Positions 13,450 to 34,833 of a stretch of DNA of 64,000 nucleotides are shown in pieces (position 1 is the stretch's first letter; every line of letters starts with the position of its first letter). The stretch is from Deltaproteobacteria bacterium (GTDB taxonomy: Bacteria; Myxococcota_A; Polyangia; JAAYKL01), in NCBI GenBank assembly GCA_016936575.1, contig JAFGXQ010000013.1, positions 2,835 through 66,834 of the forward strand, written 5' to 3'. The position numbers were made by a program, and so were the translations under genes. The notes beneath the pieces are model-generated. The model ran no database searches and was not told where the DNA came from. It saw only the letters and a list, made by a program, of their open reading frames with translations.

Positions 13450-14023
13450 CGTTCTTCCTTTTTTATGAGAAACCTTTTCAAGACTGAATGTTGCATCGAG
13501 CATGTAAAATAATGCGCAAACAAGCAACGAGAAAACAGACAGCCGGAGATTTTACAAAGTCCGGCTATTTATCTTAAAGAGTCATTTTTATGGTCCGCCT
13601 TCCTGCGCAATGAGACGCCCGGAGAGGATTCGCAGCTTGGATTGCGCATCTGACACAAAAAGCGAAGAATGGGGGCCATCCATGTTTTTGGGAACCACCG
13701 CCGATGCGGCGGACTTTCAAGAGTTCGGCGACATGCTCCCCTCACTCGGACTCACCGCCCGGCAACCTATCTTCTTATTATTATAAATCCTCACTAAAAG
13801 GATACCCCGACCGGATTCATGGCCTCCGGCGCAAACAAATACAAAAAATACACTAATCGCATATTAATTCTTTTATAAGTAGCATTATATTTCTTCAATT
13901 TCGCCAATCAAATATATAAACACTTGAATTTACTTGCAAACATGTCTAGAGGAATCGTTCGCGAATACTTGGCACATGCATTGCGATTCTCCCATTTGAA
14001 ACATTTTTCAAGGAGCATCTGCA

Positions 14024-16501
14024 ATGAAAAACAACTATTATGAAATCAAATTGGCGCTCTTTCTGGTTTTCTTTTTCGCATCCATGTACGCCTACGGCAG
14101 TGACGACGTCAGCCCCGGTCTGCATATCGATGCCGGTGGAGAAGCCATTCCGCTGCCCCTGAAAAGCACTACTGTTCGGGGAAATATCAAAGGATTTGTC
14201 GCGGACATCAAAGTGGTGCAGGAATTCGTCAATCCGTACGACAAGCATATTCAAGCCACATACGTGTTTCCACTGAGTGCTTCCGCCGCTGTGTACCACA
14301 TGGAAATGAAATTCAAAAGCACAGTGGTAAAAGCGGTCATCAAGAAAAAAGAAGAGGCGCAACAAATATATGACGAGGCGGTCCAGGCAGGGAAAACCGC
14401 AGCGCTCCTGGAACAAAACCGGCCCAATATTTTCACCCAAAAGGTAGGAAATATTCCCCCCGGCGAAAAAGTGACCGTAACCCTCACTTATCTGGAACTG
14501 CTTCCGTACGAACAGGGTGTATCGTCGTTTGTTTTTCCAACGGTTGTGGGGCCCAGATACATCCCACAGGGCGCCCCCACCGGCCTTCCCGATAAAAACC
14601 CTCAGGGCCGCGTCGCAGACAACGCACGTGTTCCGGATGCCAGCGCCATCACGCCGCCGTCATTCGCGGAGGGAGAAACCGGTGCCCATCGCATTGACCT
14701 GCGCATCACCGTGTACCCCAAAGTGGCCATACAGACGTTGACCTCTCCCTCGCACCAGATTTCGGTCTCCAGGCAAAGTAAAGAAAAGGCGGTTGTTACC
14801 ATTAAAAAAACCGATACGGTTCCCAATAAGGATTTCGTCCTAAAAATCGACGTGAGAGATAACGCGCCTGCGGTTGCCGTACTTACTCACAAAGAAAAAG
14901 AGGATGACGGCTACGTAACTCTGGCGATTCAGCCGCCGGCCCACGTGGCACCCAAAGATGCCACCCCCAAAGATCTGTTTTTTGTGGTGGATAACTCCGG
15001 TTCCATGAGCGGTGCACCGCTGAATGCGTGTAAAGATTTGATTAAAGAAGCACTCACTCATCTCAACCCCGGTGACCGCTTCACCGTGATGCGGTTTTCC
15101 GACAGCGTTTCGACCTTGTCGTCCGCACCGCTGGCCAACACCAAAGCAAACGTACAACGGGCAGTGCAGTATGTGAATGATATGCACGGAATGGGCGGAA
15201 CCGAAATGCTGTCGGGAATCAGGCGCGCACTCGAAGGCAAACCGGAAAACGGCCGTGTGCGGATCGTTTTCTTTTTAACTGACGGCTACATCGGTAATGA
15301 CAACGAAATTCTGGCGGCAGTGAAAGATGAAAACCACGCGAACGCCCGGTTGTTTTCTTTGGGTGTAGGTTCCTCGGTAAACCGATACCTGCTTTCGGGC
15401 ATGGCGCGTCTCGGCCGGGGAAAAGTACAATTTGTGCGCTACGATGAAGACCCCAAACCGGTGGTTGAAAACTTTTATCGAATGGTAAGAAACCCGGTGC
15501 TGACCGACATTTCTTTAAAGTGGAACGGCGTATCCGCAACGAATCAGGTGCCCCAGGTGATTCCGGATCTGTTTGACGGTGAACCATTGGTTGTACATTC
15601 CCGGTACACCGAAGGCGGCGACGGCGAGCTCGAGATTTCGGGGTTTTTGGGCAATAAATACTGGCGGAAAAAAATCGCAGTACATCTTCCGAACACCAAT
15701 CAGAACCCGGACATTGCCAAGTTGTGGGCACGCGCAAAGATCAGCATGTGGTCCGATATTGAAACCGGCAGACCCGGAGCGCATCGGGAAGATATTGAAA
15801 CGTTGGCCATCGAACACAATCTGATGAGCCAGTATACCTCTTTTGTCGCCGTGGCTGAAACCATCTCCCGTCAGGAAGGGGAGCCGTTGATTCCGGTGAC
15901 CCAGCGAATTCCACTTCCTGACAGCGTGTCGCAACACGCGCTGGGTACACTTTCGCGGTATGAAATTCCCCCGGGTGACCCGTTTATCGCGGTAAAGGCG
16001 CCGAGCGATGTAAAAAAAGTCACTGCGGTATTTCCCTTCGGATTGGTCAAAGATCTTCGTTACGATGCGTCGCGAGACCGATGGCGCGGCAGATTTCTGG
16101 TTCCCACCGGCATACCGGACGGCCACTATGCCATCGTCATTGCAATTACCCACAAAGACGGAACCGTCGAACTGAATACCGAAATGTTTCATCTCGATAG
16201 TGAAGCCGCGGAGTTTATTACCAACTTTGACAACAAAAAAATCCAGTCCGGAAAAGGATTGCTGCTCAAAGTTGATACAATCGAGCCGGCTGCAGAAGTA
16301 TACATTCATTGTGAGGCGCTGGGACTGAACCGGGTTCAGTTCCTGCAGGAGACAGACGATGGCATTCGATGGGAGAAGTGGATTTCATTCGACAAAACAA
16401 TCGCGCCGGGCGCCTATTCAGCGCTGGTGGTAATGAGAGACACGGCGGGAAATCGCATTGAACAAACCGTAACCATCCATATCGTCGGAGCGAAGAAATG
16501 A
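14024..16501 (+). CDS. VIT (vault inter-alpha-trypsin) domain plus von Willebrand factor A domain protein
   Basis: 825 aa. Signal peptide. N-terminal VIT-like domain. vWA MIDAS motif DNSGSMSG with downstream FFLTDGYIGNDNE. Long C-terminal extension. Confidence 0.8.
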   Translation: MKNNYYEIKLALFLVFFFASMYAYGSDDVSPGLHIDAGGEAIPLPLKSTTVRGNIKGFVADIKVVQEFVNPYDKHIQATYVFPLSASAAVYHMEMKFKSTVVKAVIKKKEEAQQIYDEAVQAGKTAALLEQNRPNIFTQKVGNIPPGEKVTVTLTYLELLPYEQGVSSFVFPTVVGPRYIPQGAPTGLPDKNPQGRVADNARVPDASAITPPSFAEGETGAHRIDLRITVYPKVAIQTLTSPSHQISVSRQSKEKAVVTIKKTDTVPNKDFVLKIDVRDNAPAVAVLTHKEKEDDGYVTLAIQPPAHVAPKDATPKDLFFVVDNSGSMSGAPLNACKDLIKEALTHLNPGDRFTVMRFSDSVSTLSSAPLANTKANVQRAVQYVNDMHGMGGTEMLSGIRRALEGKPENGRVRIVFFLTDGYIGNDNEILAAVKDENHANARLFSLGVGSSVNRYLLSGMARLGRGKVQFVRYDEDPKPVVENFYRMVRNPVLTDISLKWNGVSATNQVPQVIPDLFDGEPLVVHSRYTEGGDGELEISGFLGNKYWRKKIAVHLPNTNQNPDIAKLWARAKISMWSDIETGRPGAHREDIETLAIEHNLMSQYTSFVAVAETISRQEGEPLIPVTQRIPLPDSVSQHALGTLSRYEIPPGDPFIAVKAPSDVKKVTAVFPFGLVKDLRYDASRDRWRGRFLVPTGIPDGHYAIVIAITHKDGTVELNTEMFHLDSEAAEFITNFDNKKIQSGKGLLLKVDTIEPAAEVYIHCEALGLNRVQFLQETDDGIRWEKWISFDKTIAPGAYSALVVMRDTAGNRIEQTVTIHIVGAKK

Positions 16502-21482: not shown

Positions 21483-21669
21483 GTCAAGTTCAGAAAAGCC
21501 GAATATCAAGGCAACCATTTAAAAACAAAACGACCGATACAAACCGCTTTTAAATCGTTTTCGCATCAAGTACGATGGACAACAACCTTAAATACACAAT
21601 CATGCGCTTTGCCCGACAATTTCATGCCCGGCAAAAAAATGCATGGGACGCCCTACTGAAAGGAACAAA

Positions 21670-23751
21670 ATGAGCTTTTTAAAACTTATCCTTATTTCTT
21701 TTTGCGCACTTTTCACCATGACCGCTTGCACCGACGAACCGACCGGGGCTCCATTTACAGCGTTCCCGAAACCGGTGCAGGCGCAGTATGCGAAATATTA
21801 CAACTCTCCCAATGACTTTTACGAATTGGACCGTTCGGGCACACTGGGCAATCAAGCCACCGGGGCGCTGTACTGCGAGCAACGCAGCGGGGGAGAAATC
21901 ATTTATACCGATTCGGGCAATGCGGTGCGGGGAACCTGCGGTCTGGCCTTTGTATCGCCACACTACGCCATCACCGCCGCACATTGCGTGGACGTAGACT
22001 CCTGCGGCTATCCGGGTGTTACATTCAAAGTTCGACAATTTGACATTCGCGAGTTGGATGAGTCTGTGCTGGACGACGTATTCACCCTGTCCAATGTGCT
22101 GAATCCCGAATTCGAGACCTGGCAGCCGAATCACTTTCTGACTGATTCAGATGGATACCACTACAATGAGTATGAATGCAGCGTGGAAATTTTGTGTGAC
22201 AGCGCCGGCAATTTCGGACGACGCAACGGTGACATTTGCCAGTTGAACGGCACGTCTTTCTATCGCGACATCGCGCTGGTGCATTGCCCGAATCGCGCAG
22301 ATGACGGCCCATACCTGGAAGTGGCGCCCAGCGTCAACCCCGGCGACAATGTTCTGGTGCACTGGTTTCACGAAATCGTCAATCTCCCGTTGCCTGAAAA
22401 CTGTACAGCGCCGGAATGCGCCAATGCCAACGCGTTTTACAGCTTGCGGTCATCGATGGCGAACAACTTTCACTACATGGGGTTTGATTCCACCCGGGAA
22501 ACGCAGCTGATGCCGCTCATCACGGTGGCTTGGGGACGAAACGACACCGAGACTGATACAGAAACATCCGTTCAAAGCTCCGTGCCGCCGGAGTTGGTCG
22601 AAAACACGCATGCATTGCTCTCGACCGATACCTTCTACGCCAACACCGACATCTGGGGATGCCACGGCATATCCGGTTCCGGCTTACTGGTAGTGGGAGA
22701 TGACGGTGTGGAACGATATGTGGGCCCTGCGCAGCTCGGCTCCTACACCTCGTCCTTGGACACCAATCTATGCGAAACTTCTGATGCGGTGCCGGGACAG
22801 GAAATGCTCCGTTTCGGGCAGTCTTACTATTCCGCAGTATTGGCAGCGTGGGCATTGACGAATGATCCCGCGCTGAATGTAGACACGGATACATCCGCGG
22901 ACAGTGATACTGCGCCAGATACAGACACATCGACAGATGCAGACACCGACAGCGACACCGATTCCGATTCCGATTCCGATTCCGATACCGATACCGATTC
23001 CGATACCGACAGCGACACCGATTCCGATTCCGATTCCGATACCGACACCGATTCCGATTCCGATTCCGACAGCGACACCGATTCCGATACCGATACCGAT
23101 TCCGATTCAGACAGTGACAGCGACACAGACACAGACTCCGATTCAGATTCAGATACCGACTCAGATACTGATTCAGATACCGATACCGATTCCGACGCGG
23201 ATACTGATTCAGATACTGATTCAGATACTGATTCAGATACCGATGCCGATTCCGACGCGGATACTGATTCAGATACCGATGCCGATTCCGACGCGGATAC
23301 TGATTCAGATACCGATGCCGATGCCGACGCGGACACTGATTCAGATGCCGACGCAGATTCCGACGCGGATACTGATTCAGACACTGATTCAGATACCGAC
23401 ACCGATGCCGACGCAGATACTGATTCAGACACCGACTCAGATACTGATTCAGATACCGATGCCGACACAGATTCCGACGCGGATACTGACGCAGACAGCG
23501 ACGATGGCCCGCCTTCGTCAGATTCGGACTCCGGCGGGTTGACCGATTCAGATTCGTCAACAAATACCGGTTCAGATTCGTTGCCGAATGCAGATTCAGA
23601 ACCATTGATGGATAGCGACACAGGTGAAACGCTTGCTGATGAAGAAGATGTTCACACCGAAGAGTCGTGCGGCTGTATGGTTCCGGGAATGCCTACTGCT
23701 CAGGATTCCGATTTACTGAATCTGATGATTCGGCTGTTTACCAATTCGTAG
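21670..23751 (+). CDS. S1 (trypsin-like) serine peptidase lipoprotein with long C-terminal acidic D-S/T/A repeat region
   Basis: ORF 21643..23751. Probable start [20 protein letters not shown] (lipobox). His motif YAITAAHCV, Asp in RDIALVHC, Ser region [11 protein letters not shown]. Then about 220 aa of DSDTD/DADTD repeats and a short C-terminal tail. Confidence 0.65.
22879..23563. repeat. low-complexity GAY-WCN hexanucleotide-type repeat encoding poly(Asp-Ser/Thr/Ala)
   Basis: Seen directly. Produces stop-free ORFs in several frames on both strands, which are artefacts. Confidence 0.8.
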
Positions 23752-23769: not shown

Positions 23770-24864
23770 TCAATATACCCACGGAATGATCCGCTTCGGC
23801 ACCTTCTGAACATATTCTTCCCACAGGGCACCGTATTTCGCGCGGCAGCGCTTCTCGTCATCGCGCTCCCGGGTGGTGAGCAGCAGCACATAGTACAGCG
23901 GATACAGCCAAGCCCACCAAACCAAGGGGTACCCCAACGAAAGTGTCAGTCCCGTTGCCATCAGTACCTCCCCCAGATAGTTGACATGACGGGATATTCC
24001 CCAGAACCCACTGCACAATAGCGAATGCGTACCGTCGGATACCACTGCCGGCTTGAATACGCCCATAAATGATTTGTCAGGTTGCGTCTTGAAATAAAAT
24101 TTCTGCATGTTGGCGCCGCGGGCGAACCCCCACCCCAGAAAAAAAATCGCAGCATACAACGCGAGTAATACCGGGGACAGGTTCGGGCTCGGCAGCGGGG
24201 CCACCGTCCACAATCCGACCGCATAGAAGTACGGGTAAAACGTAAGACACCCGAACGTAAGCTTAAAGCCGACACGTTCGGCAAACAGATCATACGTGTA
24301 CAGGTGTACCCGCTCAAATGTCATGTAATCTAAAAGAAACCAGAAAAACAAAACGGTGTACAGGATTACCGAAGGCGACGCATTGCCCGGGTGCTGCATC
24401 ACATGATGGGCCGCAAAGGACAGAATATTCAGACCCAGCAGGGTTGCCCCAACCAGATACAGAAACATTTTGGCGTCAACGCGGCGGTTGAAATACTGCG
24501 GATTCTTCGAGCGACCTAAAAAGAAGTCGGCAATGAAGCCGGGCTTCACCTTCGGTTTCCCGAGCACTACCGCCAAACTGCCGATCATTCCCAACGTGAC
24601 CGCCCCTGCCAATCCTTCCCAACGGTGGGTGTACAACCAATTGAAGGGAATAATAGATCCCAAACCCAACCCGCCGAATATCGCCATAGACAATAAAAAT
24701 ACGGCCATACCATTTAACCGGTACGTCAACCGCGTGCCGCTTTTTTCATCAACCACATAGCCGGCCACGCGACGTGCCGGCAGCACGATGTGCAACAGCA
24801 GCACGCCCGCGGTAATCAGCCACGGAGCGAAAAAACCTGCAATTGTATTCCATGTGATGTTCAA
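23770..24864 (-). CDS. ERG4/ERG24 sterol-reductase family (DUF1295-like) polytopic membrane protein
   Basis: ORF 23770..25194. The upstream 110 codons overlap the SDR gene in another frame. Probable TTG start at 24862-24864 overlapping the SDR stop (TTGA). C-terminal signature LLCSGFWGISRHVNYLGEVL matches the sterol reductase/DUF1295 motif. Confidence 0.6.
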   Translation of the reverse strand: MNITWNTIAGFFAPWLITAGVLLLHIVLPARRVAGYVVDEKSGTRLTYRLNGMAVFLLSMAIFGGLGLGSIIPFNWLYTHRWEGLAGAVTLGMIGSLAVVLGKPKVKPGFIADFFLGRSKNPQYFNRRVDAKMFLYLVGATLLGLNILSFAAHHVMQHPGNASPSVILYTVLFFWFLLDYMTFERVHLYTYDLFAERVGFKLTFGCLTFYPYFYAVGLWTVAPLPSPNLSPVLLALYAAIFFLGWGFARGANMQKFYFKTQPDKSFMGVFKPAVVSDGTHSLLCSGFWGISRHVNYLGEVLMATGLTLSLGYPLVWWAWLYPLYYVLLLTTRERDDEKRCRAKYGALWEEYVQKVPKRIIPWVY

Positions 24865-25742
24865 CGATTCTCTCCTCTCGTCTGCTCGACATTCTGAATG
24901 GAGTTTGCAGCCGACAGCTCCCGCATGGCGTTTCCCATAACCTGTACCGACAGCTTTCGGGGAAGCAGTCTTGTCATCATCCAATCCGCAAACCGATTCA
25001 TCCGACCGGGAATCACAAACGGCTTTCTCCCCAGTGCCCGAAGTGCGGTTCGCGCCACCACCGCTGCATCGAGCGTTCCCGGCGCTTCCCTGACTTCTCC
25101 ACTTTTTGACGCCACACTCAAGTATCCCGGCGTTCGAATCGCGCCCGCGCAGCAAACCGTGACATCCACCCCCAACGGGCGCAATTCGTACCACAGACTC
25201 TGCCCCAGAATGGAATTGAACGCCTTACTCGCCGCATACGCTGCCACACCAGAGGTGCCCTGGTTTCCGGATAAAGAAGACATCAAAACAACTCCCCCGC
25301 GACGCTCAATCAGCCTTGGAAGCAATGCATGAATCAGCAACAACGGCCCCCGAACATTCACATCGACGGTGCTGTTCAGCTCATGGGCGGTACGCTCAAT
25401 GAACGGCCCCACTTTCGAATAGGCGGCATTGTATATCAACAGTCCCGCCTGCTTTTCCTCAAATGCCTGTAAAAGCATTTTCCCTGTTTCAGGCGTTGAA
25501 AGGTCCGCCCCAATGCAGTGTACCGCAATGTGAAACTGATCTTTCAATTGGTCTCCAAACATTTGCAGCACGTCTTGCCGCCTCGCCACCAATATCAAAT
25601 TCAATCCCGCTTCGGCAAGCTGCGTCGCAAACGCTGCCCCCAGTCCCTCAGAGGCCCCCGCCACCAATGCCCACGGTCCGTATCTTTTCCTGAGTTTGTT
25701 ATTCACGTTCTTTCGCACTTTCTTTTGCCATCTGAAAACCAC
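24861..25742 (-). CDS. SDR family NAD(P)-dependent oxidoreductase
   Basis: 293 aa. Rossmann motif LVAGASEGLGAAFA. Catalytic YAASKAF (YxxxK). Translationally coupled to the downstream reductase-family membrane protein. Confidence 0.8.
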   Translation of the reverse strand: MVFRWQKKVRKNVNNKLRKRYGPWALVAGASEGLGAAFATQLAEAGLNLILVARRQDVLQMFGDQLKDQFHIAVHCIGADLSTPETGKMLLQAFEEKQAGLLIYNAAYSKVGPFIERTAHELNSTVDVNVRGPLLLIHALLPRLIERRGGVVLMSSLSGNQGTSGVAAYAASKAFNSILGQSLWYELRPLGVDVTVCCAGAIRTPGYLSVASKSGEVREAPGTLDAAVVARTALRALGRKPFVIPGRMNRFADWMMTRLLPRKLSVQVMGNAMRELSAANSIQNVEQTRGENR

Positions 25743-25926: not shown

Positions 25927-28608
25927 ATGAAACATAACGCAACAGACGTCTCAACCAACAACCCCATCACCGAATTTTCCACCGGCCTTCCGGCGTTGGA
26001 TAAACTGATCGGGGGGGTGCTTCCCGGTGACAATTTCGTATGGCATGTCGACAGCTATGACACGTTTTTTCCGGTCGCTCGAATGTTTACAAAAGGCGCG
26101 TACGCGCTCGATCATAATGTGGTCTTCTTTCGCTGGAACGACACCAAAAATCCGTTCAGACAATGGGATACCGATCTCACCCGGAACGTTTTCGAGTATC
26201 GCCTTCATCCCAAAAACGATTTTGAACGATTTATCACCGAAATGCACACAGTTATTGAGGATGCCGCGCCTCACACTGTATTCATTTTTGATCTGCTGTC
26301 CGATTTAACCAACCATTTTCGGGCGGAACAGTCACTGGAAAATTTTTTCGTGTTGACCTGTCCATTTATTCTGCAAATGAAGCATCTGGGCGTATTCCCC
26401 ATTCTTCGAAACCGCCATCCGTTCAGCACGGCACACCCGATTCAGGAGACCACACAGATTGACATCGACTTGTTTCATTATAACCAGGCGAAGCATCTTC
26501 ATTTGCGCAAGGCGGATGGACGTCATACAGATTTAATGTACACCATGCATCGCTGGGAAGAAGACCGCCTGGTACCGCTGCTAAACAGCGTTGATGCGGT
26601 GACCGCGCTTCATGACGGGGGTTGGGAAGGGCTCCAGTCGGCATCATATCGAATGATTATTCAGTGGGATCGAGAATTCATGAATGGGGCGGAATACCTT
26701 GCCCAACCACAAATCGATGCCGCTGAAAAACAAAAGCAGCTGACGCGGCTTCTTCCGATGATTATCACTCGCGACCCGAGGATGTTGCGATTATATGAGC
26801 GCTATTTCACCCTTGAAGATATTATTTACGTATGGAAACGAACCATTGGCTCCGGCATGATTGGCGGCAAATCCGCGGGAATGCTGTTATCTCGCGCAAT
26901 TGTGAAAAAAGAAATTCCGGAAGCCTCTCAGTATCTGGAACCCCATGATTCCTTTTTCATTGCATCTGACGTGTACTACGATTTTCTTGTAAAAAATAAT
27001 TGTTGGCGTATTCGAAAAAAACAACAATGTCGCGAAACACTCCTTGAAGACGCCGCGGTCGGACGCAAGCGCATTTTAAACGGAAATTTCTCCGCTGAAA
27101 TTATGCAACGTTTTGCCGACATGCTGCGCTACTTCGGCCAGGAGCCCATCATTGTTCGCTCTTCCAGTTTACAGGAAGATGCATATCAAAATGCCTTTGC
27201 CGGAAAATACGAAAGCGTTTTCTGTTCCAATCAGGGAACGCCGCAAACGCGACTTGACGCATTCACCAATGCAGTTCGCACAGTATATGCCAGTACAATG
27301 AGCAATGAAGCACTTCGGTACCGCGAAAAACGGAACCTCCTCGGGCAAGACGAGCAAATGGCCATTCTGGTACAACGGGTATCCGGTACCCGTTGCCGGA
27401 ATACCTTTTACCCCCACATGGCCGGCGTCGGCCTTTCGTACAACCCATATATCTGGAATCCAAAAATCAAACCGGAGGCAGGGGTACTCCGTCTTGTGGT
27501 GGGTCTGGGCACCCGAGCCGTCGACCGACACGATGACGATCACGCGCGTGTTGTTGCACTGAATATGCCCGAATTGCCGCCCCTGGGAGATTCAGAATCC
27601 GGCCGTTCCTATACACAATGTAAAGTGGATATTATCAACCTCAAAGAAAACAAGATTCAATCCAGATACTTCGTCGATCTCATTGAACAATGTAAAAACT
27701 TTCCATCCAATCGTTTGGCAGCAGTAGACACAATTGTTCAAAAGCGACAGCAGGAGACAGGGCACCGCGGTCGCGTTCCCTGGGTGGTGGATTTTACCCA
27801 ATTGTTTCGAAATACAGATTTGGCGTCATCATTTCAAAAAATTCTCGTGGCGCTGAAGAAAACCTATGAGACCGAAGTTGAAATTGAATTCACAGTGACA
27901 TTATTGCCGGATGACTCCGTCCGTTTAAACATCGTCCAATGCCGTCCATTTCAGATTGAACTTGACGGAGAACTTGCAACAAGTTCTCAAATCCCCGCAC
28001 ATGCGGTTCTGAAAACAAAGCAAACGACCATTTTACACGCCAACGGCGCCATACTCGGAAAAAGTCGACGTCATCATGTGAACCGAATCATTTTCGTCGT
28101 ACCCGCCGCATACAGCATGTTATCCGAACAAGACAAATATATTGTGGCTCGGCTTATCGGAAAACTCACACGGTTGACACCGCCGAAAGTGAATGACGAT
28201 GATGAACACGTCAATGTTGTATTGGTCGGTCCCGGACGATGGGGAACGAGAATGCCTTCATTGGGCGTACCGATTACGTCGAGCGATATCAGTAATGTAT
28301 CCGCCATGTGCGAACTCGACATTATGCACGAGGGATTAATCCCGGACTTGTCTCTTGGCACTCATTTCTTCCATGAGCTGGTGGAGTCCAATATTCTGTA
28401 CATCGGATATTTCAGCGCACGCCCCGACAACAGTTTGCATATGCAATTTTTAACCCAAACACATAACCGATTGGAAGAATTGCTTCCTGAAGAAAATCGC
28501 TGGGAAAACGTGGTTCGCGTCATTGACAGCACCGCCACCATACCGCTGTATCTTTCGGCCGACCTCCAGCAGCAGTCAGCGAAGCTATTCGGCATTGAGC
28601 AGACGTAA
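25927..28608 (+). CDS. fusion protein: KaiC/RecA-like degenerate ATPase domain plus PEP/pyruvate-binding (PPDK_N, PEP synthase-like ATP-grasp) domain
   Basis: 893 aa. N-terminus STGLPALDKLIGGVLPGDNFVWHVDS resembles KaiC/RadA N-terminus but lacks Walker A. Middle region GMIGGKSAGML...IIVRSSSLQEDAYQNAFAGKYESV...AILVQRVSG matches the PPDK_N / PEP synthase nucleotide-binding domain. No obvious phosphohistidine swivel domain. Confidence 0.65.
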   Translation: MKHNATDVSTNNPITEFSTGLPALDKLIGGVLPGDNFVWHVDSYDTFFPVARMFTKGAYALDHNVVFFRWNDTKNPFRQWDTDLTRNVFEYRLHPKNDFERFITEMHTVIEDAAPHTVFIFDLLSDLTNHFRAEQSLENFFVLTCPFILQMKHLGVFPILRNRHPFSTAHPIQETTQIDIDLFHYNQAKHLHLRKADGRHTDLMYTMHRWEEDRLVPLLNSVDAVTALHDGGWEGLQSASYRMIIQWDREFMNGAEYLAQPQIDAAEKQKQLTRLLPMIITRDPRMLRLYERYFTLEDIIYVWKRTIGSGMIGGKSAGMLLSRAIVKKEIPEASQYLEPHDSFFIASDVYYDFLVKNNCWRIRKKQQCRETLLEDAAVGRKRILNGNFSAEIMQRFADMLRYFGQEPIIVRSSSLQEDAYQNAFAGKYESVFCSNQGTPQTRLDAFTNAVRTVYASTMSNEALRYREKRNLLGQDEQMAILVQRVSGTRCRNTFYPHMAGVGLSYNPYIWNPKIKPEAGVLRLVVGLGTRAVDRHDDDHARVVALNMPELPPLGDSESGRSYTQCKVDIINLKENKIQSRYFVDLIEQCKNFPSNRLAAVDTIVQKRQQETGHRGRVPWVVDFTQLFRNTDLASSFQKILVALKKTYETEVEIEFTVTLLPDDSVRLNIVQCRPFQIELDGELATSSQIPAHAVLKTKQTTILHANGAILGKSRRHHVNRIIFVVPAAYSMLSEQDKYIVARLIGKLTRLTPPKVNDDDEHVNVVLVGPGRWGTRMPSLGVPITSSDISNVSAMCELDIMHEGLIPDLSLGTHFFHELVESNILYIGYFSARPDNSLHMQFLTQTHNRLEELLPEENRWENVVRVIDSTATIPLYLSADLQQQSAKLFGIEQT

Positions 28609-28631: not shown

Positions 28632-29639
28632 TTACAAAAACGCCTGTAACCGATCATCCAACTCTGAAAACGAAAATAGTTGGTCGTACGGAAAAATTCC
28701 CGCCATTGCACTCGACACCACTCTGATACCGGTTTCTTCAAAAATTGAGGTCGGATTCAGCCCTCCGATAATAATGGCGCCCGCTCTGTCGGGAGAAACC
28801 GGAAAGTCAAAAATGCTCTGCCCCGGATTTCCAAGGCACATCAGACTGCCCAACCCGATTTCCTGAAGCCGTTGCGCCACAGACCGAATAATGCTGACGC
28901 TCTCCCCGGGAAACTCGCGAAAGCTTGCGCCGATTAAGCCATTTCCGCTGGTAATCGCTCCGATGTAATCGGCCATTCCGGCGCGAATAAATATTTCAAG
29001 CGGGTCAATACTGGTGCCGTCGTATGAAATCAATTCTACGAAACGTCGCGCTTTTCCTTTGCGAATTTCAAGCAAGCCCCCGAATCTGGAAGTTACCGGA
29101 ATTCCGCGACGCTGAAGAATACCATTGAACGTTATTGAACAAACGGTACCCAACCCGACATTTCCATCCGGAATAATGGTACCGAAACATGAACTTCCCG
29201 GACCAAGCAACGTCATCATTCTTCCCATGGCGTATCCCTTGGAAAATACCTTCGCTATCAATTTGCGGCGATAGACCGTGAATTCTTTTATCGGAACGAT
29301 CGAAATATTGACCACTACCGTACCCTGTCGGGTAATTGGATCAAAATCCATGCGGTACGCCATCGTATCTATTTTTCCAGATAGAAATCCCACCCGTTCG
29401 TGCACTCGCGATGATTCAGATTCCCGCACTCCGGCTTCTTTAATCATGCGTCCTTTTCGCCCCCAATTTTCAGTAAACCCGTTCTCGTCGAATTCCTGTA
29501 GATACAGCCGTACTGTGCGTTCGCTGATGTCAAACCCTTGAGCAGTTAATGTGTTTGTTATTCTCGTGCTTGAGAGAGGTACTTGGCTATTGGTCAGTAC
29601 ATCAAGAATGGCAAGCCGCTTTTTTTCCTTTTTGTCCAT
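28632..29639 (-). CDS. NrpR-like (DUF128) nitrogen-regulatory transcriptional repressor family protein
   Basis: 335 aa. N-terminal winged HTH (KKRLAILDVL...STRITNTLTAQGFDISERTVRLYLQEFDENG) followed by two repeated domains, consistent with the NrpR architecture. Divergent from gdhA. Confidence 0.55.
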   Translation of the reverse strand: MDKKEKKRLAILDVLTNSQVPLSSTRITNTLTAQGFDISERTVRLYLQEFDENGFTENWGRKGRMIKEAGVRESESSRVHERVGFLSGKIDTMAYRMDFDPITRQGTVVVNISIVPIKEFTVYRRKLIAKVFSKGYAMGRMMTLLGPGSSCFGTIIPDGNVGLGTVCSITFNGILQRRGIPVTSRFGGLLEIRKGKARRFVELISYDGTSIDPLEIFIRAGMADYIGAITSGNGLIGASFREFPGESVSIIRSVAQRLQEIGLGSLMCLGNPGQSIFDFPVSPDRAGAIIIGGLNPTSIFEETGIRVVSSAMAGIFPYDQLFSFSELDDRLQAFL

Positions 29640-29771: not shown

Positions 29772-31172
<1,401 letters not shown>

Positions 31173-31936: not shown

Positions 31937-33898
31937 ATGACGAAGCCCAAGCAACATGTTTCAATACAGAACCCAACCGACCCGCAGTCCCGAACCCCGA
32001 TGAAGCCGTCACCATTTCACGAAATCGAAAAAAGCGTTTACAGCGCACTAGAAACCTATGCAAATGTGCACCGCGGCAGCGGTCATGCATCTACGGTTAC
32101 TACGGCACTGTATGAAAAGGCCCGTGATGCGGTTCTGGCCCATCTCAACCTGTCGAAAAAAAAATACAAGGTTCTCTTTTGTTCTCCCGGCCGAGCAGCA
32201 GCGCTGACCGACCAACTCCACACCAACGCATTCCACCAACTCTCGAGCCGCGACCTGGGACTCGCCGTGGGTGTGCGCGCCATCGCCATTTCTAAGAAAA
32301 CATTGAAGTCACTTCGCCCAGTTGACACCGGCGGAGGTGCAGCCCGGCTTATCGCACCCAAATGGGTGGTTTGGGAACATGCGCCGGACCTGTTTGAAGC
32401 GGGTACGCCGGCGGTGATAAATATCATTGCTTTCGTCCGCGCACTTCAGCTTTCAGGCAAAGCAAACGCCCGGAATGCATTCAGCGAATCAGAGTCCTTA
32501 TCAGCGAATGCGCAACAATTGTTTGAAGGTATTTTACCCGGGCTAAGTGGAGAAACGCTGATGGCAGAACTGCTGGAAACGCGCATCGGACGCTCGATGC
32601 CGGTACCCACCACCCGCGGTATGCAGCCGTATATCAATCTTGACAACAGTGCCAGCACCCCCACATTCGCACCGATTTGGGACGTCGTTCGGTTCACCTG
32701 GCGTCAACCCGCCGCGGTTCAGGAACAAATTGTTCAATCGGTTCGAACCATCTGCGCACAGTTCCTCAATGCGCCGCAGACCGACTACCACACACTTTTC
32801 ACCTGGAACACCACAGAGGCGGTGAACAGTGCTGCGCGATTGGTTGCGACGGATACCCCTTCAGACATTGCGCCGGTCATCGTCAGCACTATGCTGGAAC
32901 ATTCATCGAACGATTTGCCCTGGCGCACCATACCCGGCGTGCAAATGGAGTACTTATCTATCAATGACGAAGGATTCGTGGACCCATCACAGTTGCAGCA
33001 GCTGTTGGTAGAATACAATGACGAAAAGAAACACGGCAACCAACGTATCGTTTTAGTCTCTGTCAGCGGCGCATCCAATGTGCTCGGTACATGCAACCGG
33101 CTTTCTGAAATCAGCCGATTGGCCCACCGTTATAACGCCCGTCTGTTTGTTGACGCGGCCCAGCTGATTGCTCACCGCAAGATAGATATAGCAACGGACC
33201 AAATCGATTTTTTGGCGTTTTCCGCCCACAAAGTATATGCACCCTTCGGAGCCGGTTCCTTGATCATTAAAAAGCAGTCGCTTGGCATCGATGAAAAAAC
33301 GCTCTCAACATTAGAGCAACACGGTGATGAAAACGCAGCAGGCATCTCTGCGTTGGGAGCTTCACTCTCCTTACTGAACCGAATCGGGATGAAACATATC
33401 GAACAAAAAGAACTCTCGCTTACACGGCATGCGTTGATGGGTCTCAGTAATATTTCCAATGTTCGATTGTACGGCATAAAAGCCCCTGACACACTCGCAC
33501 TATCCCAAAAAGTCGGCGTCATTCCATTTGATGTGAAGGGAACCATGCCTGCCACCACCGCGCGCAGACTGGCTGAAGAACGAGGAATCGGCGTTCGCTA
33601 CGGCTGCCATTGTGCACATATCACGGTAAAGAGAATTCTTCACATCGGCCCGCGTCTTGAAGCGTTCCAACGAATCATTCTTCGACTGGTTCCCATGCTG
33701 AAGTTCCAGGGAGTCGTCCGTGTCAGCTTCGGCCTTGAAAACAGCATAGATGATGTGGATGCGCTGGTGCAAACCATGTTGCGGTTTACCGATAAACAAG
33801 TCTCGTCGACTGACTTATCACAAAAAGAAATGAAACAGGCAATGGGGTCTTTTGCGGAGGAGCGGGTTGCACGCGTTTTTGCAACACAGACAAAATGA
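31937..33898 (+). CDS. class V aminotransferase / cysteine desulfurase-like PLP enzyme (extended, 653 aa)
   Basis: NifS/SufS-like fold. Lys-PLP motif FSAHKVYAPFGAG. Longer than canonical desulfurases. Confidence 0.75.
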   Translation: MTKPKQHVSIQNPTDPQSRTPMKPSPFHEIEKSVYSALETYANVHRGSGHASTVTTALYEKARDAVLAHLNLSKKKYKVLFCSPGRAAALTDQLHTNAFHQLSSRDLGLAVGVRAIAISKKTLKSLRPVDTGGGAARLIAPKWVVWEHAPDLFEAGTPAVINIIAFVRALQLSGKANARNAFSESESLSANAQQLFEGILPGLSGETLMAELLETRIGRSMPVPTTRGMQPYINLDNSASTPTFAPIWDVVRFTWRQPAAVQEQIVQSVRTICAQFLNAPQTDYHTLFTWNTTEAVNSAARLVATDTPSDIAPVIVSTMLEHSSNDLPWRTIPGVQMEYLSINDEGFVDPSQLQQLLVEYNDEKKHGNQRIVLVSVSGASNVLGTCNRLSEISRLAHRYNARLFVDAAQLIAHRKIDIATDQIDFLAFSAHKVYAPFGAGSLIIKKQSLGIDEKTLSTLEQHGDENAAGISALGASLSLLNRIGMKHIEQKELSLTRHALMGLSNISNVRLYGIKAPDTLALSQKVGVIPFDVKGTMPATTARRLAEERGIGVRYGCHCAHITVKRILHIGPRLEAFQRIILRLVPMLKFQGVVRVSFGLENSIDDVDALVQTMLRFTDKQVSSTDLSQKEMKQAMGSFAEERVARVFATQTK

Positions 33899-33967: not shown

Positions 33968-34702
33968 CTACCAGACGTTGAGAATCTTTCCGGTCATATC
34001 GGTATCACTGTAACGGAACCAGTTTGACGCTTCTTCTTTCACCCGCTTGGCATCCGCCTCGGTGAATTCAGATTCCGGACCGACCCAGTATACCCGATGG
34101 ACAATAATTTCGTCGTTGATGTTCTGTTTACTGGTCACACACGCAGCAATTTTCCCGGCCATTCCCTTTAAATCCAGATTGGCCTCCACACACAGGGCTT
34201 TGCGCTTTTTCTTGCCGACCTTTGTCTCTGTAAACTCCAGATTCGAGCCGCTTCCATATTTCTCGGCCATCTCTGATTTAATAAACCGCGCGGCCTGGTC
34301 TCTCAATTCAGCCTCAATATCGCCGGCGGTTTCATTGGGAACCAAAGACTCCACTTTAATCGTTAAATTACCGTCGGTAATTTTCACCTTGCCGCCGAAT
34401 GTTCCGCACTCCACCTGCGACGACGGCGTCACGTGTAAAAACCAATCCGCCATATCGGATACCACCTGAATCACGCCCTCTTCAATTTCTTCCACCCTGC
34501 ATTTTTTTTCGTCTTCGCGCCCGGCGGTTCGCTGAATGGCGGCCGGCCGTTGGGGTTCCGCTACCGCAGGTGCTTCAACCACTTCTTCGACCGGCATAAT
34601 CGGCTCGGAAATAGTTTCCGTCTCTGATTCCTGAGCCGCACCACCGCACCCGACGATTGTGGCAAAAAATAAAACCGGGAAAAATTCGATTCTTTTTTTC
34701 AT
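33968..34702 (-). CDS. hypothetical lipoprotein
   Basis: ORF 33968..34768. Probable start MKKRIEFFPVLFFATIVGCGG (lipobox). Confidence 0.45.
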   Translation of the reverse strand: MKKRIEFFPVLFFATIVGCGGAAQESETETISEPIMPVEEVVEAPAVAEPQRPAAIQRTAGREDEKKCRVEEIEEGVIQVVSDMADWFLHVTPSSQVECGTFGGKVKITDGNLTIKVESLVPNETAGDIEAELRDQAARFIKSEMAEKYGSGSNLEFTETKVGKKKRKALCVEANLDLKGMAGKIAACVTSKQNINDEIIVHRVYWVGPESEFTEADAKRVKEEASNWFRYSDTDMTGKILNVW

Positions 34703-34833
34703 GACCATCCTCTGTTTCCTTTTTTGGTTTGATTCCCCAAATATGCCGCCAACCCACTTTACAGTCAATCGCCGTTATGGTTTTCAGCGCATTGCCCGTA
34801 TAAGAACAATATTTCGTTCATTCAGAAAGAAAA

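What the first reader, a model, noticed from the sequence alone, without database searches (positions are those of the whole stretch)
25927..28608. Unusual fusion: degenerate KaiC/RecA-like domain joined to a PEP-synthase/PPDK-type nucleotide-binding (PPDK_N) domain
The N-terminus (TGLPALDKLIGGVLPGDNFVWHVDSYD) looks like the KaiC/RadA N-terminal segment, but the P-loop is replaced by VWHVDS, making it a likely pseudo-ATPase. Residues about 310-640 match the ATP-grasp PPDK_N domain (GGKSAGML..., IIVRSSSLQEDAYQNAFAGKYES, AILVQRVSG). No recognisable phosphohistidine swivel or PEP-utilising domain follows, only about 250 aa of unknown C-terminus. PPDK_N-only proteins include antibiotic phosphotransferases. 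A KaiC-like regulatory fusion would be a new variant. The gene is adjacent to the NrpR-like/gdhA nitrogen locus.
Basis: partly seen in the sequence, partly recalled or inferred. Interest (0 to 1): 0.55.

Follow-up and report, generated by a model that had tools for sequence, protein, structure and literature searches.

The report
Dead-KaiC/ATP-grasp protein linked to glutamate synthesis
The gene encodes a real three-part protein (a dead KaiC-like domain, an intact-looking ATP-binding domain and a C-terminal domain with no close known relative) from a widespread uncharacterised family that usually sits beside the genes that make glutamate from ammonium, so it may be an unrecognised player in bacterial nitrogen assimilation.

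Summary

The fusion is not a one-off. Full-length homologues occur in at least 587 species genomes across many phyla, under generic or wrong names such as "pyruvate, phosphate dikinase". I found no paper on the family.

The main new result is gene linkage. In 82 homologous loci, NADP-glutamate dehydrogenase lies within 10 kb in 41 and glutamate synthase gltBD in 20. One or the other is directly adjacent in 37, in all orientations.

Best reading: an ATP-dependent, dikinase-like phosphotransfer or regulatory protein acting at the step that converts 2-oxoglutarate to glutamate. The substrate and mechanism are inferred, not shown.

The parts
25927..28608 (+). Complete ORF of 893 aa plus stop codon; a three-domain protein
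   Evidence: A 100% identical protein in the database is named 'MAG: pyruvate, phosphate dikinase [Deltaproteobacteria bacterium]'.
25966..26622 (+). N-terminal KaiC/RecA-like pseudo-ATPase core (aa 14-232)
26026..26064 (+). Position of the lost Walker A loop (aa 34-46, GDNFVWHVDSYDT); G34, D35, N36 and W39 are invariant in the family
   Evidence: The alignment to KaiC places GATGTGKT opposite DS(I/Y)(E/D)D-(Y/F). None of the 37 homologues has GxxxxGK[ST].
26278..26301 (+). Retained Walker-B-like strand FIFDLLSD (aa 118-125, D122 invariant)
   Evidence: It aligns with KaiC IDSLSAL and D122 is invariant.
26623..26844 (+). Conserved helical linker (aa 233-306), including the WxGLQSASYRM motif
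   Evidence: Secondary structure of the model. W233, G235, L236, S238 and R242 are invariant. Function unknown.
26857..27957 (+). PPDK_N ATP-grasp nucleotide-binding domain (aa 311-677)
27976..28605 (+). Family-specific C-terminal domain (aa 684-893)
28228..28245 (+). Invariant GPGRWG loop (aa 768-773)
   Evidence: Invariant in the family and in paralogues of 27-33% identity that carry other N-terminal domains.
28357..28371 (+). Invariant GTHFF motif (aa 811-815) at the N-terminus of a helix; His813 is a candidate catalytic or phospho-acceptor residue
   Evidence: Invariant across the family and its paralogues. The helix spans aa 812-820 in the model. The role of His813 is inferred.
28632..29639 (-). 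NrpR-like regulator gene (HTH_12 plus NRD1_2 domains), convergent with the target (23-bp gap) and divergent from gdhA
   Evidence: Pfam PF01995 E 2.3e-73. NrpR homologues lie in 9 of 82 homologous loci.
29835..31172 (+). NADP-specific glutamate dehydrogenase gene gdhA, the recurrent genomic partner of the family
   Evidence: NCBIfam NF006929 scores 771 bits against a cut-off of 536. A GDH lies within 10 kb of the homologue in 41 of 82 loci and within 700 bp in 30.

Best explanation
The gene encodes one member of a widespread, uncharacterised three-domain family. The N-terminal domain is a catalytically dead KaiC/RecA-like domain. The middle domain is a PPDK_N-type ATP-grasp that looks catalytically competent. 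The C-terminal domain is specific to this family and carries invariant GPGRWG and GTHFF (His813) motifs. The family is genomically tied to the two enzymes that make glutamate from 2-oxoglutarate: NADP-glutamate dehydrogenase and glutamate synthase. The most likely working model is as follows. The ATP-grasp domain binds and cleaves ATP as in dikinases. The phosphoryl group is passed to the C-terminal domain, with His813 as the candidate carrier, or directly to an acceptor. The output modifies or regulates the glutamate-forming step. The dead KaiC-like domain would serve as an oligomerisation, partner-docking or ligand-sensing module, much as a receiver domain occupies the N-terminal position in a paralogue. 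The following are shown: the domain identities, the loss of the ATPase motifs, the conservation of the ATP-grasp residues, the family's breadth and the gene linkage. The following are inferred: ATP turnover, the role of His813, the identity of the acceptor and any physical contact with GDH or GOGAT. The confidence given is for the whole statement: the descriptive part is about 0.9 and the mechanistic part about 0.3.
For: Domain identities rest. In the ATP-grasp domain, R411 and S430 align with RPH-Lm Arg117 and Thr136. K315 and E654 are assigned to Lys22 and Glu297 by motif only. K315, R411, S430, E654, Q671 and R673 are all invariant in 37 homologues. The C-domain core motifs are invariant even in paralogues of 27-33% identity whose N-terminus is a Response_reg receiver or something else. 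This suggests that PPDK_N plus the C-domain is the effector unit and the N-terminal domain is the regulatory input. For linkage, unbiased clustering of neighbouring ORFs in 82 loci gives GDH as the top neighbour. GltB and GltD also recur, behind a mixed histidine-kinase/response-regulator cluster (17 loci), and then NrpR. By tblastn, GDH is present in 41 of 82 loci, GOGAT in 20, and either one in 53. One is directly adjacent (≤700 bp) in 37. Among the 23 loci with at least 8 kb on both flanks, 17 have one and 12 have it adjacent. The pairs occur in all orientations, including probable gdhA-target operons with gaps of 4-330 bp, and come from Planctomycetota, Verrucomicrobiota, Spirochaetota, Acidobacteriota, Proteobacteria, Chloroflexota, Armatimonadota, Omnitrophota, Fibrobacterota, Lentisphaerota and Gemmatimonadota. 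In Bryobacterales the three genes form a run: gdhA, then the receiver-domain paralogue, then the KaiC-form. The window has the same theme: target, NrpR-like gene, then gdhA.
Confidence: 0.45

Rival explanations
1. It is a conventional PEP synthase or pyruvate phosphate dikinase, as the database names say. It would make PEP from pyruvate through a phosphohistidine swivel domain.
For: PPDK_N is present. Sources name it 'pyruvate, phosphate dikinase' or 'pyruvate, water dikinase'.
Against: There is no PEP-utilizers or PEP-utilizers_C domain. NCBIfam PEP synthase and PPDK equivalogs score 14-47 bits against cut-offs of 456-1063, and only over aa ~340-488. The GG-x-TSH motif is absent and hhalign to E. 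coli swivel domains gives probability 0.4%. Nothing in the protein could bind pyruvate or PEP in the known way.
Confidence: 0.02
2. It is an antibiotic or xenobiotic phosphotransferase of the rifampin phosphotransferase or phenol/hydroxyphenylethanone kinase type. It would act alone or with a separate His-swivel partner.
Against: NCBIfam RPH scores 26 bits against a cut-off of 999. No RIF-binding or swivel domain is present. No ORF carrying a canonical GG-x-[TS][SC]H swivel motif lies anywhere in the 82 loci. The neighbours are nitrogen-assimilation genes, not resistance or aromatic-catabolism genes.
Confidence: 0.05
3. It is a non-catalytic energy or metabolite sensor. The ATP-grasp domain only binds ATP, ADP or AMP, and the dead KaiC-like domain binds a ligand such as 2-oxoglutarate. 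The protein would control GDH or GOGAT allosterically by direct binding, with no phosphotransfer.
For: The linkage to GDH and GOGAT is strong. The N-domain is a pseudo-enzyme with many invariant polar residues. The canonical phosphohistidine motif is absent.
Against: The residues that position the ATP phosphates and Mg for catalysis (K315, R411, S430, E654, Q671, R673) are invariant. The C-domain GPGRWG and GTHFF motifs are conserved like an active site, even across paralogues.
Confidence: 0.2
4. It is a metabolic enzyme that uses ATP to activate a small molecule at the glutamate node, for example by phosphorylating or ligating 2-oxoglutarate, glutamate or a derivative. It would not be a regulator of other proteins.
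For: The ATP-grasp domain looks catalytic. Operon-like gdhA-target arrangements with gaps of 4-330 bp fit a pathway. The degenerate nucleotide site of the N-domain keeps D122 and a TTQ motif. From memory, that motif resembles the phosphate-sensing TNQ of Rad51 and RadA, so the site could be a new acceptor site.
Against: No further pathway genes are conserved around it. Paralogues swap the N-domain for a receiver domain, which fits signalling better than metabolism. All four gene orientations relative to gdhA occur, as is typical of regulator-target pairs.
Confidence: 0.2
5. The adjacency reflects only co-regulation within a nitrogen regulon, or chance synteny inherited among related genomes. 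The protein's function would have nothing directly to do with GDH or GOGAT.
For: In this window the target and gdhA are separate transcription units with no shared motif. Some well-flanked loci (6 of 23) lack both enzymes.
Against: The linkage spans more than ten phyla with rearranged orientations and with either gdhA or gltBD as the partner. This is not what inherited synteny gives. A single-copy gene would fall within ±10 kb of a random gene in well under 1% of cases, by my estimate from genome size, whereas 50% is observed for gdhA.
Confidence: 0.08

Closest known systems
Rifampin phosphotransferase (RPH) and PEP synthase/PPDK: dikinases with a PPDK_N ATP-grasp domain
   Different: There is no GG-x-TSH phosphohistidine motif, no PEP-utilizers Pfam hit, no PEP/pyruvate TIM barrel and no RIF-binding domain. 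All equivalog models score far below their cut-offs. The protein has an N-terminal KaiC-like domain that none of these enzymes has.
KaiC/RecA-superfamily proteins, especially KaiC CII, archaeal KaiC-like PH0284 and FlaH (ArlH), and the degenerate members Elp4/5/6 and BcsE
   Different: Walker A and the catalytic Glu pair are lost in every family member. The domain is single rather than duplicated, and it is fused to an ATP-grasp enzyme. From my own knowledge, it resembles the pseudo-ATPase members (Elp4/5/6, BcsE N-domain) in being a structural or regulatory module rather than an ATPase.
Two-component aromatic kinases (HpeHI; from my own knowledge also phenylphosphate synthase PpsAB)
   Different: Those systems encode a separate swivel and substrate-binding subunit next door. 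No such partner lies in any of the 82 loci, and the genomic context is nitrogen assimilation, not aromatic catabolism.
Dedicated covalent regulators of nitrogen-assimilation enzymes (GlnE adenylyltransferase for glutamine synthetase; GarA/OdhI-PknG control of GDH and ODH in actinobacteria). This is an analogy from my own knowledge only.
   Same: The concept is the same: an ATP-using protein dedicated to controlling a central ammonium-assimilation enzyme.
   Different: There is no homology. No modification of GDH or GOGAT by this family has been shown. The analogy is a hypothesis, not a classification.

Membership tests
PEP synthase / pyruvate phosphate dikinase | PPDK_N ATP-grasp nucleotide-binding domain | tested here: met
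   PF01326 E 1.7e-41 over aa 311-677.
PEP synthase / pyruvate phosphate dikinase | PEP-utilizers phosphohistidine swivel domain with the GG-x-T[SC]H motif | tested here: not met
PEP synthase / pyruvate phosphate dikinase | PEP-utilizers_C TIM-barrel domain that binds PEP or pyruvate | tested here: not met
   No Pfam hit, and the protein ends 215 aa after the ATP-grasp domain.
PEP synthase / pyruvate phosphate dikinase | Score above the NCBIfam equivalog cut-off | tested here: not met
   The best score is 47 bits against a cut-off of 883. PPDK scores 14.5 against 456.
Rifampin phosphotransferase | ATP-grasp plus RIF-binding domain plus C-terminal His swivel (His825), and a score above the NF041857 cut-off | tested here: not met
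KaiC/RecA-like ATPases | RecA-like α/β core fold | tested here: met
KaiC/RecA-like ATPases | Walker A P-loop GxxxxGK[ST] | tested here: not met
   It is replaced by DS(I/Y)(E/D)D-(Y/F) and absent from all 37 homologues.
KaiC/RecA-like ATPases | Catalytic glutamate(s) after strand β2 (KaiC 'FxFEE') | tested here: not met
   The aligned segment is FRFAKH or FFRWND.
KaiC/RecA-like ATPases | Walker B aspartate | tested here: met
   D122 in FDLLSDL aligns with KaiC IDSLSAL and is invariant.
KaiC/RecA-like ATPases | Ring (hexamer) assembly with inter-subunit nucleotide sites | not testable with these tools
   Only a monomer was modelled. K195 and R199 are invariant and could be finger-like residues, but that is speculation.
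Two-component PPDK_N kinases (HpeHI / phenylphosphate synthase type) | A separate His-swivel and substrate-binding subunit encoded next to the ATP-grasp subunit | tested here: not met
   A six-frame motif scan of the 82 loci and the window found no ORF with a canonical swivel motif.
The unnamed family itself (pseudo-KaiC + PPDK_N + GPGRWG/GTHFF C-domain) | Full-length collinear similarity with all three domains and their invariant motifs | tested here: met
   All of the best 120 listed proteins cover 95-100% of the query, mostly at 44-69% identity. The 37-sequence alignment has mean column identity of 61%.
The unnamed family itself (pseudo-KaiC + PPDK_N + GPGRWG/GTHFF C-domain) | Genomic association with gdhA or gltBD | tested here: met
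   In the window, gdhA lies 1.2 kb downstream with only the NrpR-like gene between. Across the family, 53 of 82 loci carry one of the two.

The most novel reading that the evidence does not exclude
The family could be a previously unrecognised, ATP-driven post-translational controller of ammonium assimilation. The dead KaiC-like domain would form a ring or docking platform for hexameric NADP-GDH and for GOGAT. The ATP-grasp and C-domain unit would transfer a phosphoryl group, through His813 on a new type of carrier domain, to the enzyme or to a bound metabolite. This would set the flux from 2-oxoglutarate to glutamate according to energy or nitrogen status in Planctomycetota, Verrucomicrobiota, Spirochaetota, Acidobacteriota, many Proteobacteria and others.
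Probability: 0.2. Interest if true: 0.85.

Novelty: new variant of a known kind. Interest (0 to 1): 0.6.

Why it matters
GDH and GS-GOGAT are the entry points of nitrogen into biomass. Their control is understood mainly in enterobacteria, Firmicutes, actinobacteria and cyanobacteria. This protein is conserved across more than ten phyla, misannotated as a dikinase, and mostly encoded beside gdhA or gltBD. That pattern points to a missing component of nitrogen or energy integration in many environmentally dominant but poorly studied lineages, and gives a concrete gene to test. It also adds a new architecture to the PPDK_N ATP-grasp superfamily, including a C-terminal domain with no match in solved structures. 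It is a further case of a KaiC/RecA fold reused as a pseudo-enzyme. In practice, the 'pyruvate, phosphate dikinase' and 'pyruvate, water dikinase' annotations on thousands of proteins should not be used in metabolic reconstructions.

Tried and rejected
1. Conventional dikinase or RPH identity was rejected on domain content and NCBIfam cut-offs.
2. Anti-phage defence was rejected: there is no PADLOC hit.
5. I looked for a shared operator or promoter between the target and gdhA. There is no methanogen-type NrpR operator GGAA-N6-TTCC in the window. The two upstream regions share no k-mer of 10 or more bases. There is no σ54 promoter near either gene. The palindrome upstream of gdhA is unique to the window and absent from the other loci.
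6. I looked for a cis-encoded His-swivel partner and found none.
7. Eight literature searches that ran (a ninth attempt was rejected on input syntax) found nothing on this architecture or on a GDH-associated dikinase-like protein. only retrieved RPH and HpeHI papers used for comparison.
8. The afdb50 fold library was unavailable, so UniProt-annotated structural neighbours could not be checked.
9. The profile search with the C-domain listed only in-family proteins among its top 150, so more distant links could not be inspected.
Full report
**Observation**

The window has a single long ORF at 25927-28608 on the + strand (ATG start, 893 aa). Pfam finds one domain, PPDK_N (PF01326), over aa 311-677 with E 1.7e-41. 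It finds no PEP-utilizers or PEP-utilizers_C domain. NCBIfam models for PEP synthase, PPDK, rifampin phosphotransferase (RPH) and PigC/RedH match only aa ~340-488. They score 14-47 bits against cut-offs of 456-1350. A single-sequence search of PDB sequences finds nothing.

**N-terminal domain**

I aligned 37 full-length homologues (A1). Every one has the invariant GDN-x-VW segment followed by an acidic D-S-x-x-D/E-(Y/F) turn where a P-loop would be. None has GxxxxGK[ST].

A profile of the N-domain alone (A2) hits KaiC 8zn5_B at E 0.0024 and aligns in register with the CII domain. In that alignment:
- KaiC Walker A GATGTGKT lies opposite DS(I/Y)(E/D)D-(Y/F)
- the catalytic FAFEES lies opposite FRFAKH
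- Walker B IDSLSAL lies opposite FDLLSDL, with D122 invariant

Weak Pfam hits to the degenerate RecA-like Elongator subunits PAXNEB/Elp4 and Iki1/Elp5 appear in homologues.

It nevertheless keeps many invariant polar residues: D35, N36, E100, D122, N139, T175, Q177, K195 and R199. From memory, the TTQ motif resembles the phosphate-sensing TNQ of Rad51 and RadA. This suggests a conserved binding surface or ligand site rather than a passive spacer. That is inference.

**ATP-grasp domain**

The profile alignment to RPH from Listeria, together with the mutagenesis in PMC4844700, lets me map key residues. R411 (VRSS) aligns with RPH Arg117 and S430 (GKYES) with Thr136. K315 (GGK) corresponds to Lys22 and E654 (EIEF) to Glu297 by motif only, because the alignment does not cover those positions. 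These four residues, plus Q671 and R673, are invariant in A1. The domain therefore looks competent to bind and cleave ATP. This is inferred from conservation and has not been tested.

**C-terminal domain**

Residues 684-893 fold confidently on their own (pLDDT 90.1, pTM 0.89). They have no Pfam family. Foldseek against 350,542 PDB chains finds nothing (best E 0.72).

The profile alignment to archaeal PEP synthase 8a8e runs through the end of the ATP-grasp domain into the first hairpin of its His domain. I fetched five real E. coli swivel domains (PpsA, PtsI, PtsP, PtsA, FryA) and compared them with the C-domain by hhalign. The probability was 0.4%, with only LGVP matched to LGIP.

A domain HMM searched against 1.84 billion cluster representatives finds only 1,802 proteins at E ≤0.001. 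I therefore take the domain to be confined to this PPDK_N subfamily, although only the 150 best, in-family hits were listed.

The canonical GG-x-TSH phosphohistidine motif is absent. The invariant features are GPGRWG (768-773), E796, S-x-GTHFF (809-815, His813 at a helix N-terminus) and Y825. These persist in paralogues of only 27-33% identity. His813 is thus a candidate catalytic or phospho-carrier residue, but this is conjecture.

**How common is the architecture?**

The word-index search returned 6,586 proteins at E ≤0.001. The best 120 are all full length (95-100% coverage, mostly 44-69% identity, about 860-900 aa). They come from Planctomycetota, Spirochaetota, Acidobacteriota, Elusimicrobiota, Fibrobacterota, Polyangiaceae and Gammaproteobacteria, among others. 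They carry names such as 'pyruvate, phosphate dikinase', 'PEP/pyruvate-binding domain-containing protein' and, once, 'KaiC/GvpD/RAD55 family RecA-like ATPase'. The 100% identical entry is from a deltaproteobacterial MAG.

Variants exist:
- about 1,500-aa tandem fusions of [PPDK_N + C-domain] with [pseudo-KaiC + PPDK_N + C-domain]
- a form with a C-terminal nucleotidyltransferase domain
- paralogues in which the N-terminal KaiC-like domain is replaced by a Response_reg receiver region or another unknown region

This domain swapping suggests that PPDK_N plus the C-domain is the effector core and the N-terminal domain is the input or regulatory module.

**Genomic context: the main new result**

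In the window the target is followed by two genes. The first is a convergent NrpR-like regulator (28632-29639, PF01995 E 2.3e-73). The second, transcribed divergently from it, is the NADP-specific glutamate dehydrogenase gene (29835-31172; NF006929, 771 bits against a cut-off of 536). The upstream genes are not conserved elsewhere: an SDR, an ERG4/ERG24-like protein and a 702-aa ORF with no Pfam domain.

I collected 82 homologous loci and clustered all flanking ORFs without prior assumptions. The most recurrent neighbour is GDH. GltB, GltD and then NrpR also recur. The only other recurrent cluster is a mixed set of histidine kinases and response regulators, in 17 loci.

Counts by tblastn:

| Neighbour | Loci out of 82 |
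|---|---|
| GDH within 10 kb | 41 |
| GDH within 700 bp | 30 |
| GltB or GltD within 10 kb | 20 |
| GDH or GOGAT within 10 kb | 53 |
| GDH or GOGAT directly adjacent (≤700 bp) | 37 |

Many loci are truncated by contig ends. Among the 23 loci with at least 8 kb on both sides, 17 have GDH or GOGAT and 12 have one directly adjacent.

The pairs occur in every orientation: upstream on the same strand with gaps of 4-330 bp, divergent, convergent, and downstream. In three loci the adjacent gene is a divergent ELFV-dehydrogenase paralogue; two of them (L002, L005) have only the paralogue and L004 also has gdhA. In Bryobacterales the order is gdhA, receiver-form paralogue, KaiC-form.

A single-copy gene is expected within ±10 kb of a random gene in well under 1% of cases. 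This is my estimate from genome size, not a computed control. The linkage crosses more than ten phyla with rearranged gene order. That argues for functional coupling to the 2-oxoglutarate-to-glutamate step rather than inherited synteny.

**What I could not find**
- There is no anti-phage signature.
- No partner with a His-swivel domain is encoded in cis.
- The window has no NrpR-type GGAA-N6-TTCC operator, no σ54 promoter near either gene, and no motif shared by the target and gdhA upstream regions.
- The palindrome ATTCCGATATTCCGGAAT upstream of gdhA is unique to the window and not conserved elsewhere.
- No paper describes this architecture or a GDH-associated dikinase-like protein.
- The afdb50 library was unavailable.

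**Interpretation**

The following points are shown:
- The protein has three domains: a dead KaiC-like domain, an intact-looking PPDK_N ATP-grasp domain, and a family-specific C-domain.
- It belongs to a broad, conserved family.
- Its 'PPDK' or 'PEP synthase' annotation is wrong.
- Its gene is strongly linked to gdhA or gltBD.

The following points are inferred:
- The ATP-grasp domain turns over ATP in a dikinase-like manner.
- The C-domain takes the place of the swivel carrier, possibly using His813.
- The N-domain provides oligomerisation, docking or sensing.
- The output controls or feeds the glutamate-forming enzymes.

Rival readings are scored separately. A pure sensor or scaffold and a small-molecule-activating enzyme remain live. 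A conventional dikinase, an antibiotic kinase and mere co-regulation are unlikely.

**Novelty and verdict**

The fusion is real but it is not a rare oddity. It is a conserved, unnamed family that forms a new architectural variant within the PPDK_N ATP-grasp superfamily, and its C-terminal domain has no solved structural relative. The interest lies less in the fusion itself than in the cross-phylum association with GDH and GOGAT. That association gives a directly testable hypothesis of an unrecognised component of nitrogen assimilation. I score interest at 0.6.

Noticed in passing
window 13970-13984 (+): An exact match to the σ54 -24/-12 consensus (TGGCACATGCATTGC) lies about 40 bp upstream of the ORF at 14024-16501, which encodes a VIT plus von Willebrand A domain protein. 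It is the only zero-mismatch hit in the window.
   Followed up: no
window 31937-33898 (+): This is a 653-aa class-V aminotransferase/cysteine desulfurase with an N-terminal extension of about 260 aa. It has a sub-threshold hit to the family 2A encapsulin cargo cysteine desulfurase model (NF041166, 166 bits against a cut-off of 800). The neighbouring 266-aa ORF at 33968-34768 (-) has no Pfam or NCBIfam hit.
   Followed up: no
window 21643-23751 (+): This 702-aa ORF has no Pfam domain. Its C-terminal half (aa ~413-670) matches only the Ser-Asp repeat regions of staphylococcal MSCRAMM adhesin models, which suggests a low-complexity repeat tract.
   Followed up: no
window 29774-29791: The palindrome ATTCCGATATTCCGGAAT lies in the nrpR-gdhA divergent intergenic region, about 44 bp upstream of the gdhA start. 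It is the only exact TTCCG-N6-CGGAA site in the window. It is absent from the target's upstream region and does not recur near gdhA or nrpR in the 82 related loci.
   Followed up: partly
L034 5563-12562; also L052 4184-11165 and L053 1611-8590: In Bryobacterales/Acidobacteria MAGs the genes run gdhA, then a paralogue of about 990 aa with a Response_reg receiver region plus PPDK_N plus the same C-domain, then the KaiC-form. All are on one strand and look like an operon.
   Followed up: partly
proteins P0005, P0006, P0008, P0121 (about 1,460-1,510 aa) and P0186 (1,654 aa): These are natural tandem fusions of a [PPDK_N + C-domain] unit to a full [pseudo-KaiC + PPDK_N + C-domain] unit. One relative carries an extra C-terminal Pol-β-type nucleotidyltransferase domain. 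This hints that two copies of the core work together.
   Followed up: partly
L004 1143-9063; L002 6749-7855; L005 7876-9030: Some loci carry a divergent ELFV-dehydrogenase paralogue (23-33% identity to the window GdhA) next to the family gene, either in addition to gdhA or instead of it. L004 also has two convergent full-length copies of the family gene.
   Followed up: partly
window 23770-25194 (-) and 24861-25742 (-): An ERG4/ERG24-family (sterol-reductase-like/DUF1295) ORF overlaps a short-chain dehydrogenase ORF by about 330 bp, so the GTG start listed for the ERG4-like ORF is probably too far upstream. A sterol-reductase-family gene in a deltaproteobacterial MAG may deserve a look.
   Followed up: no
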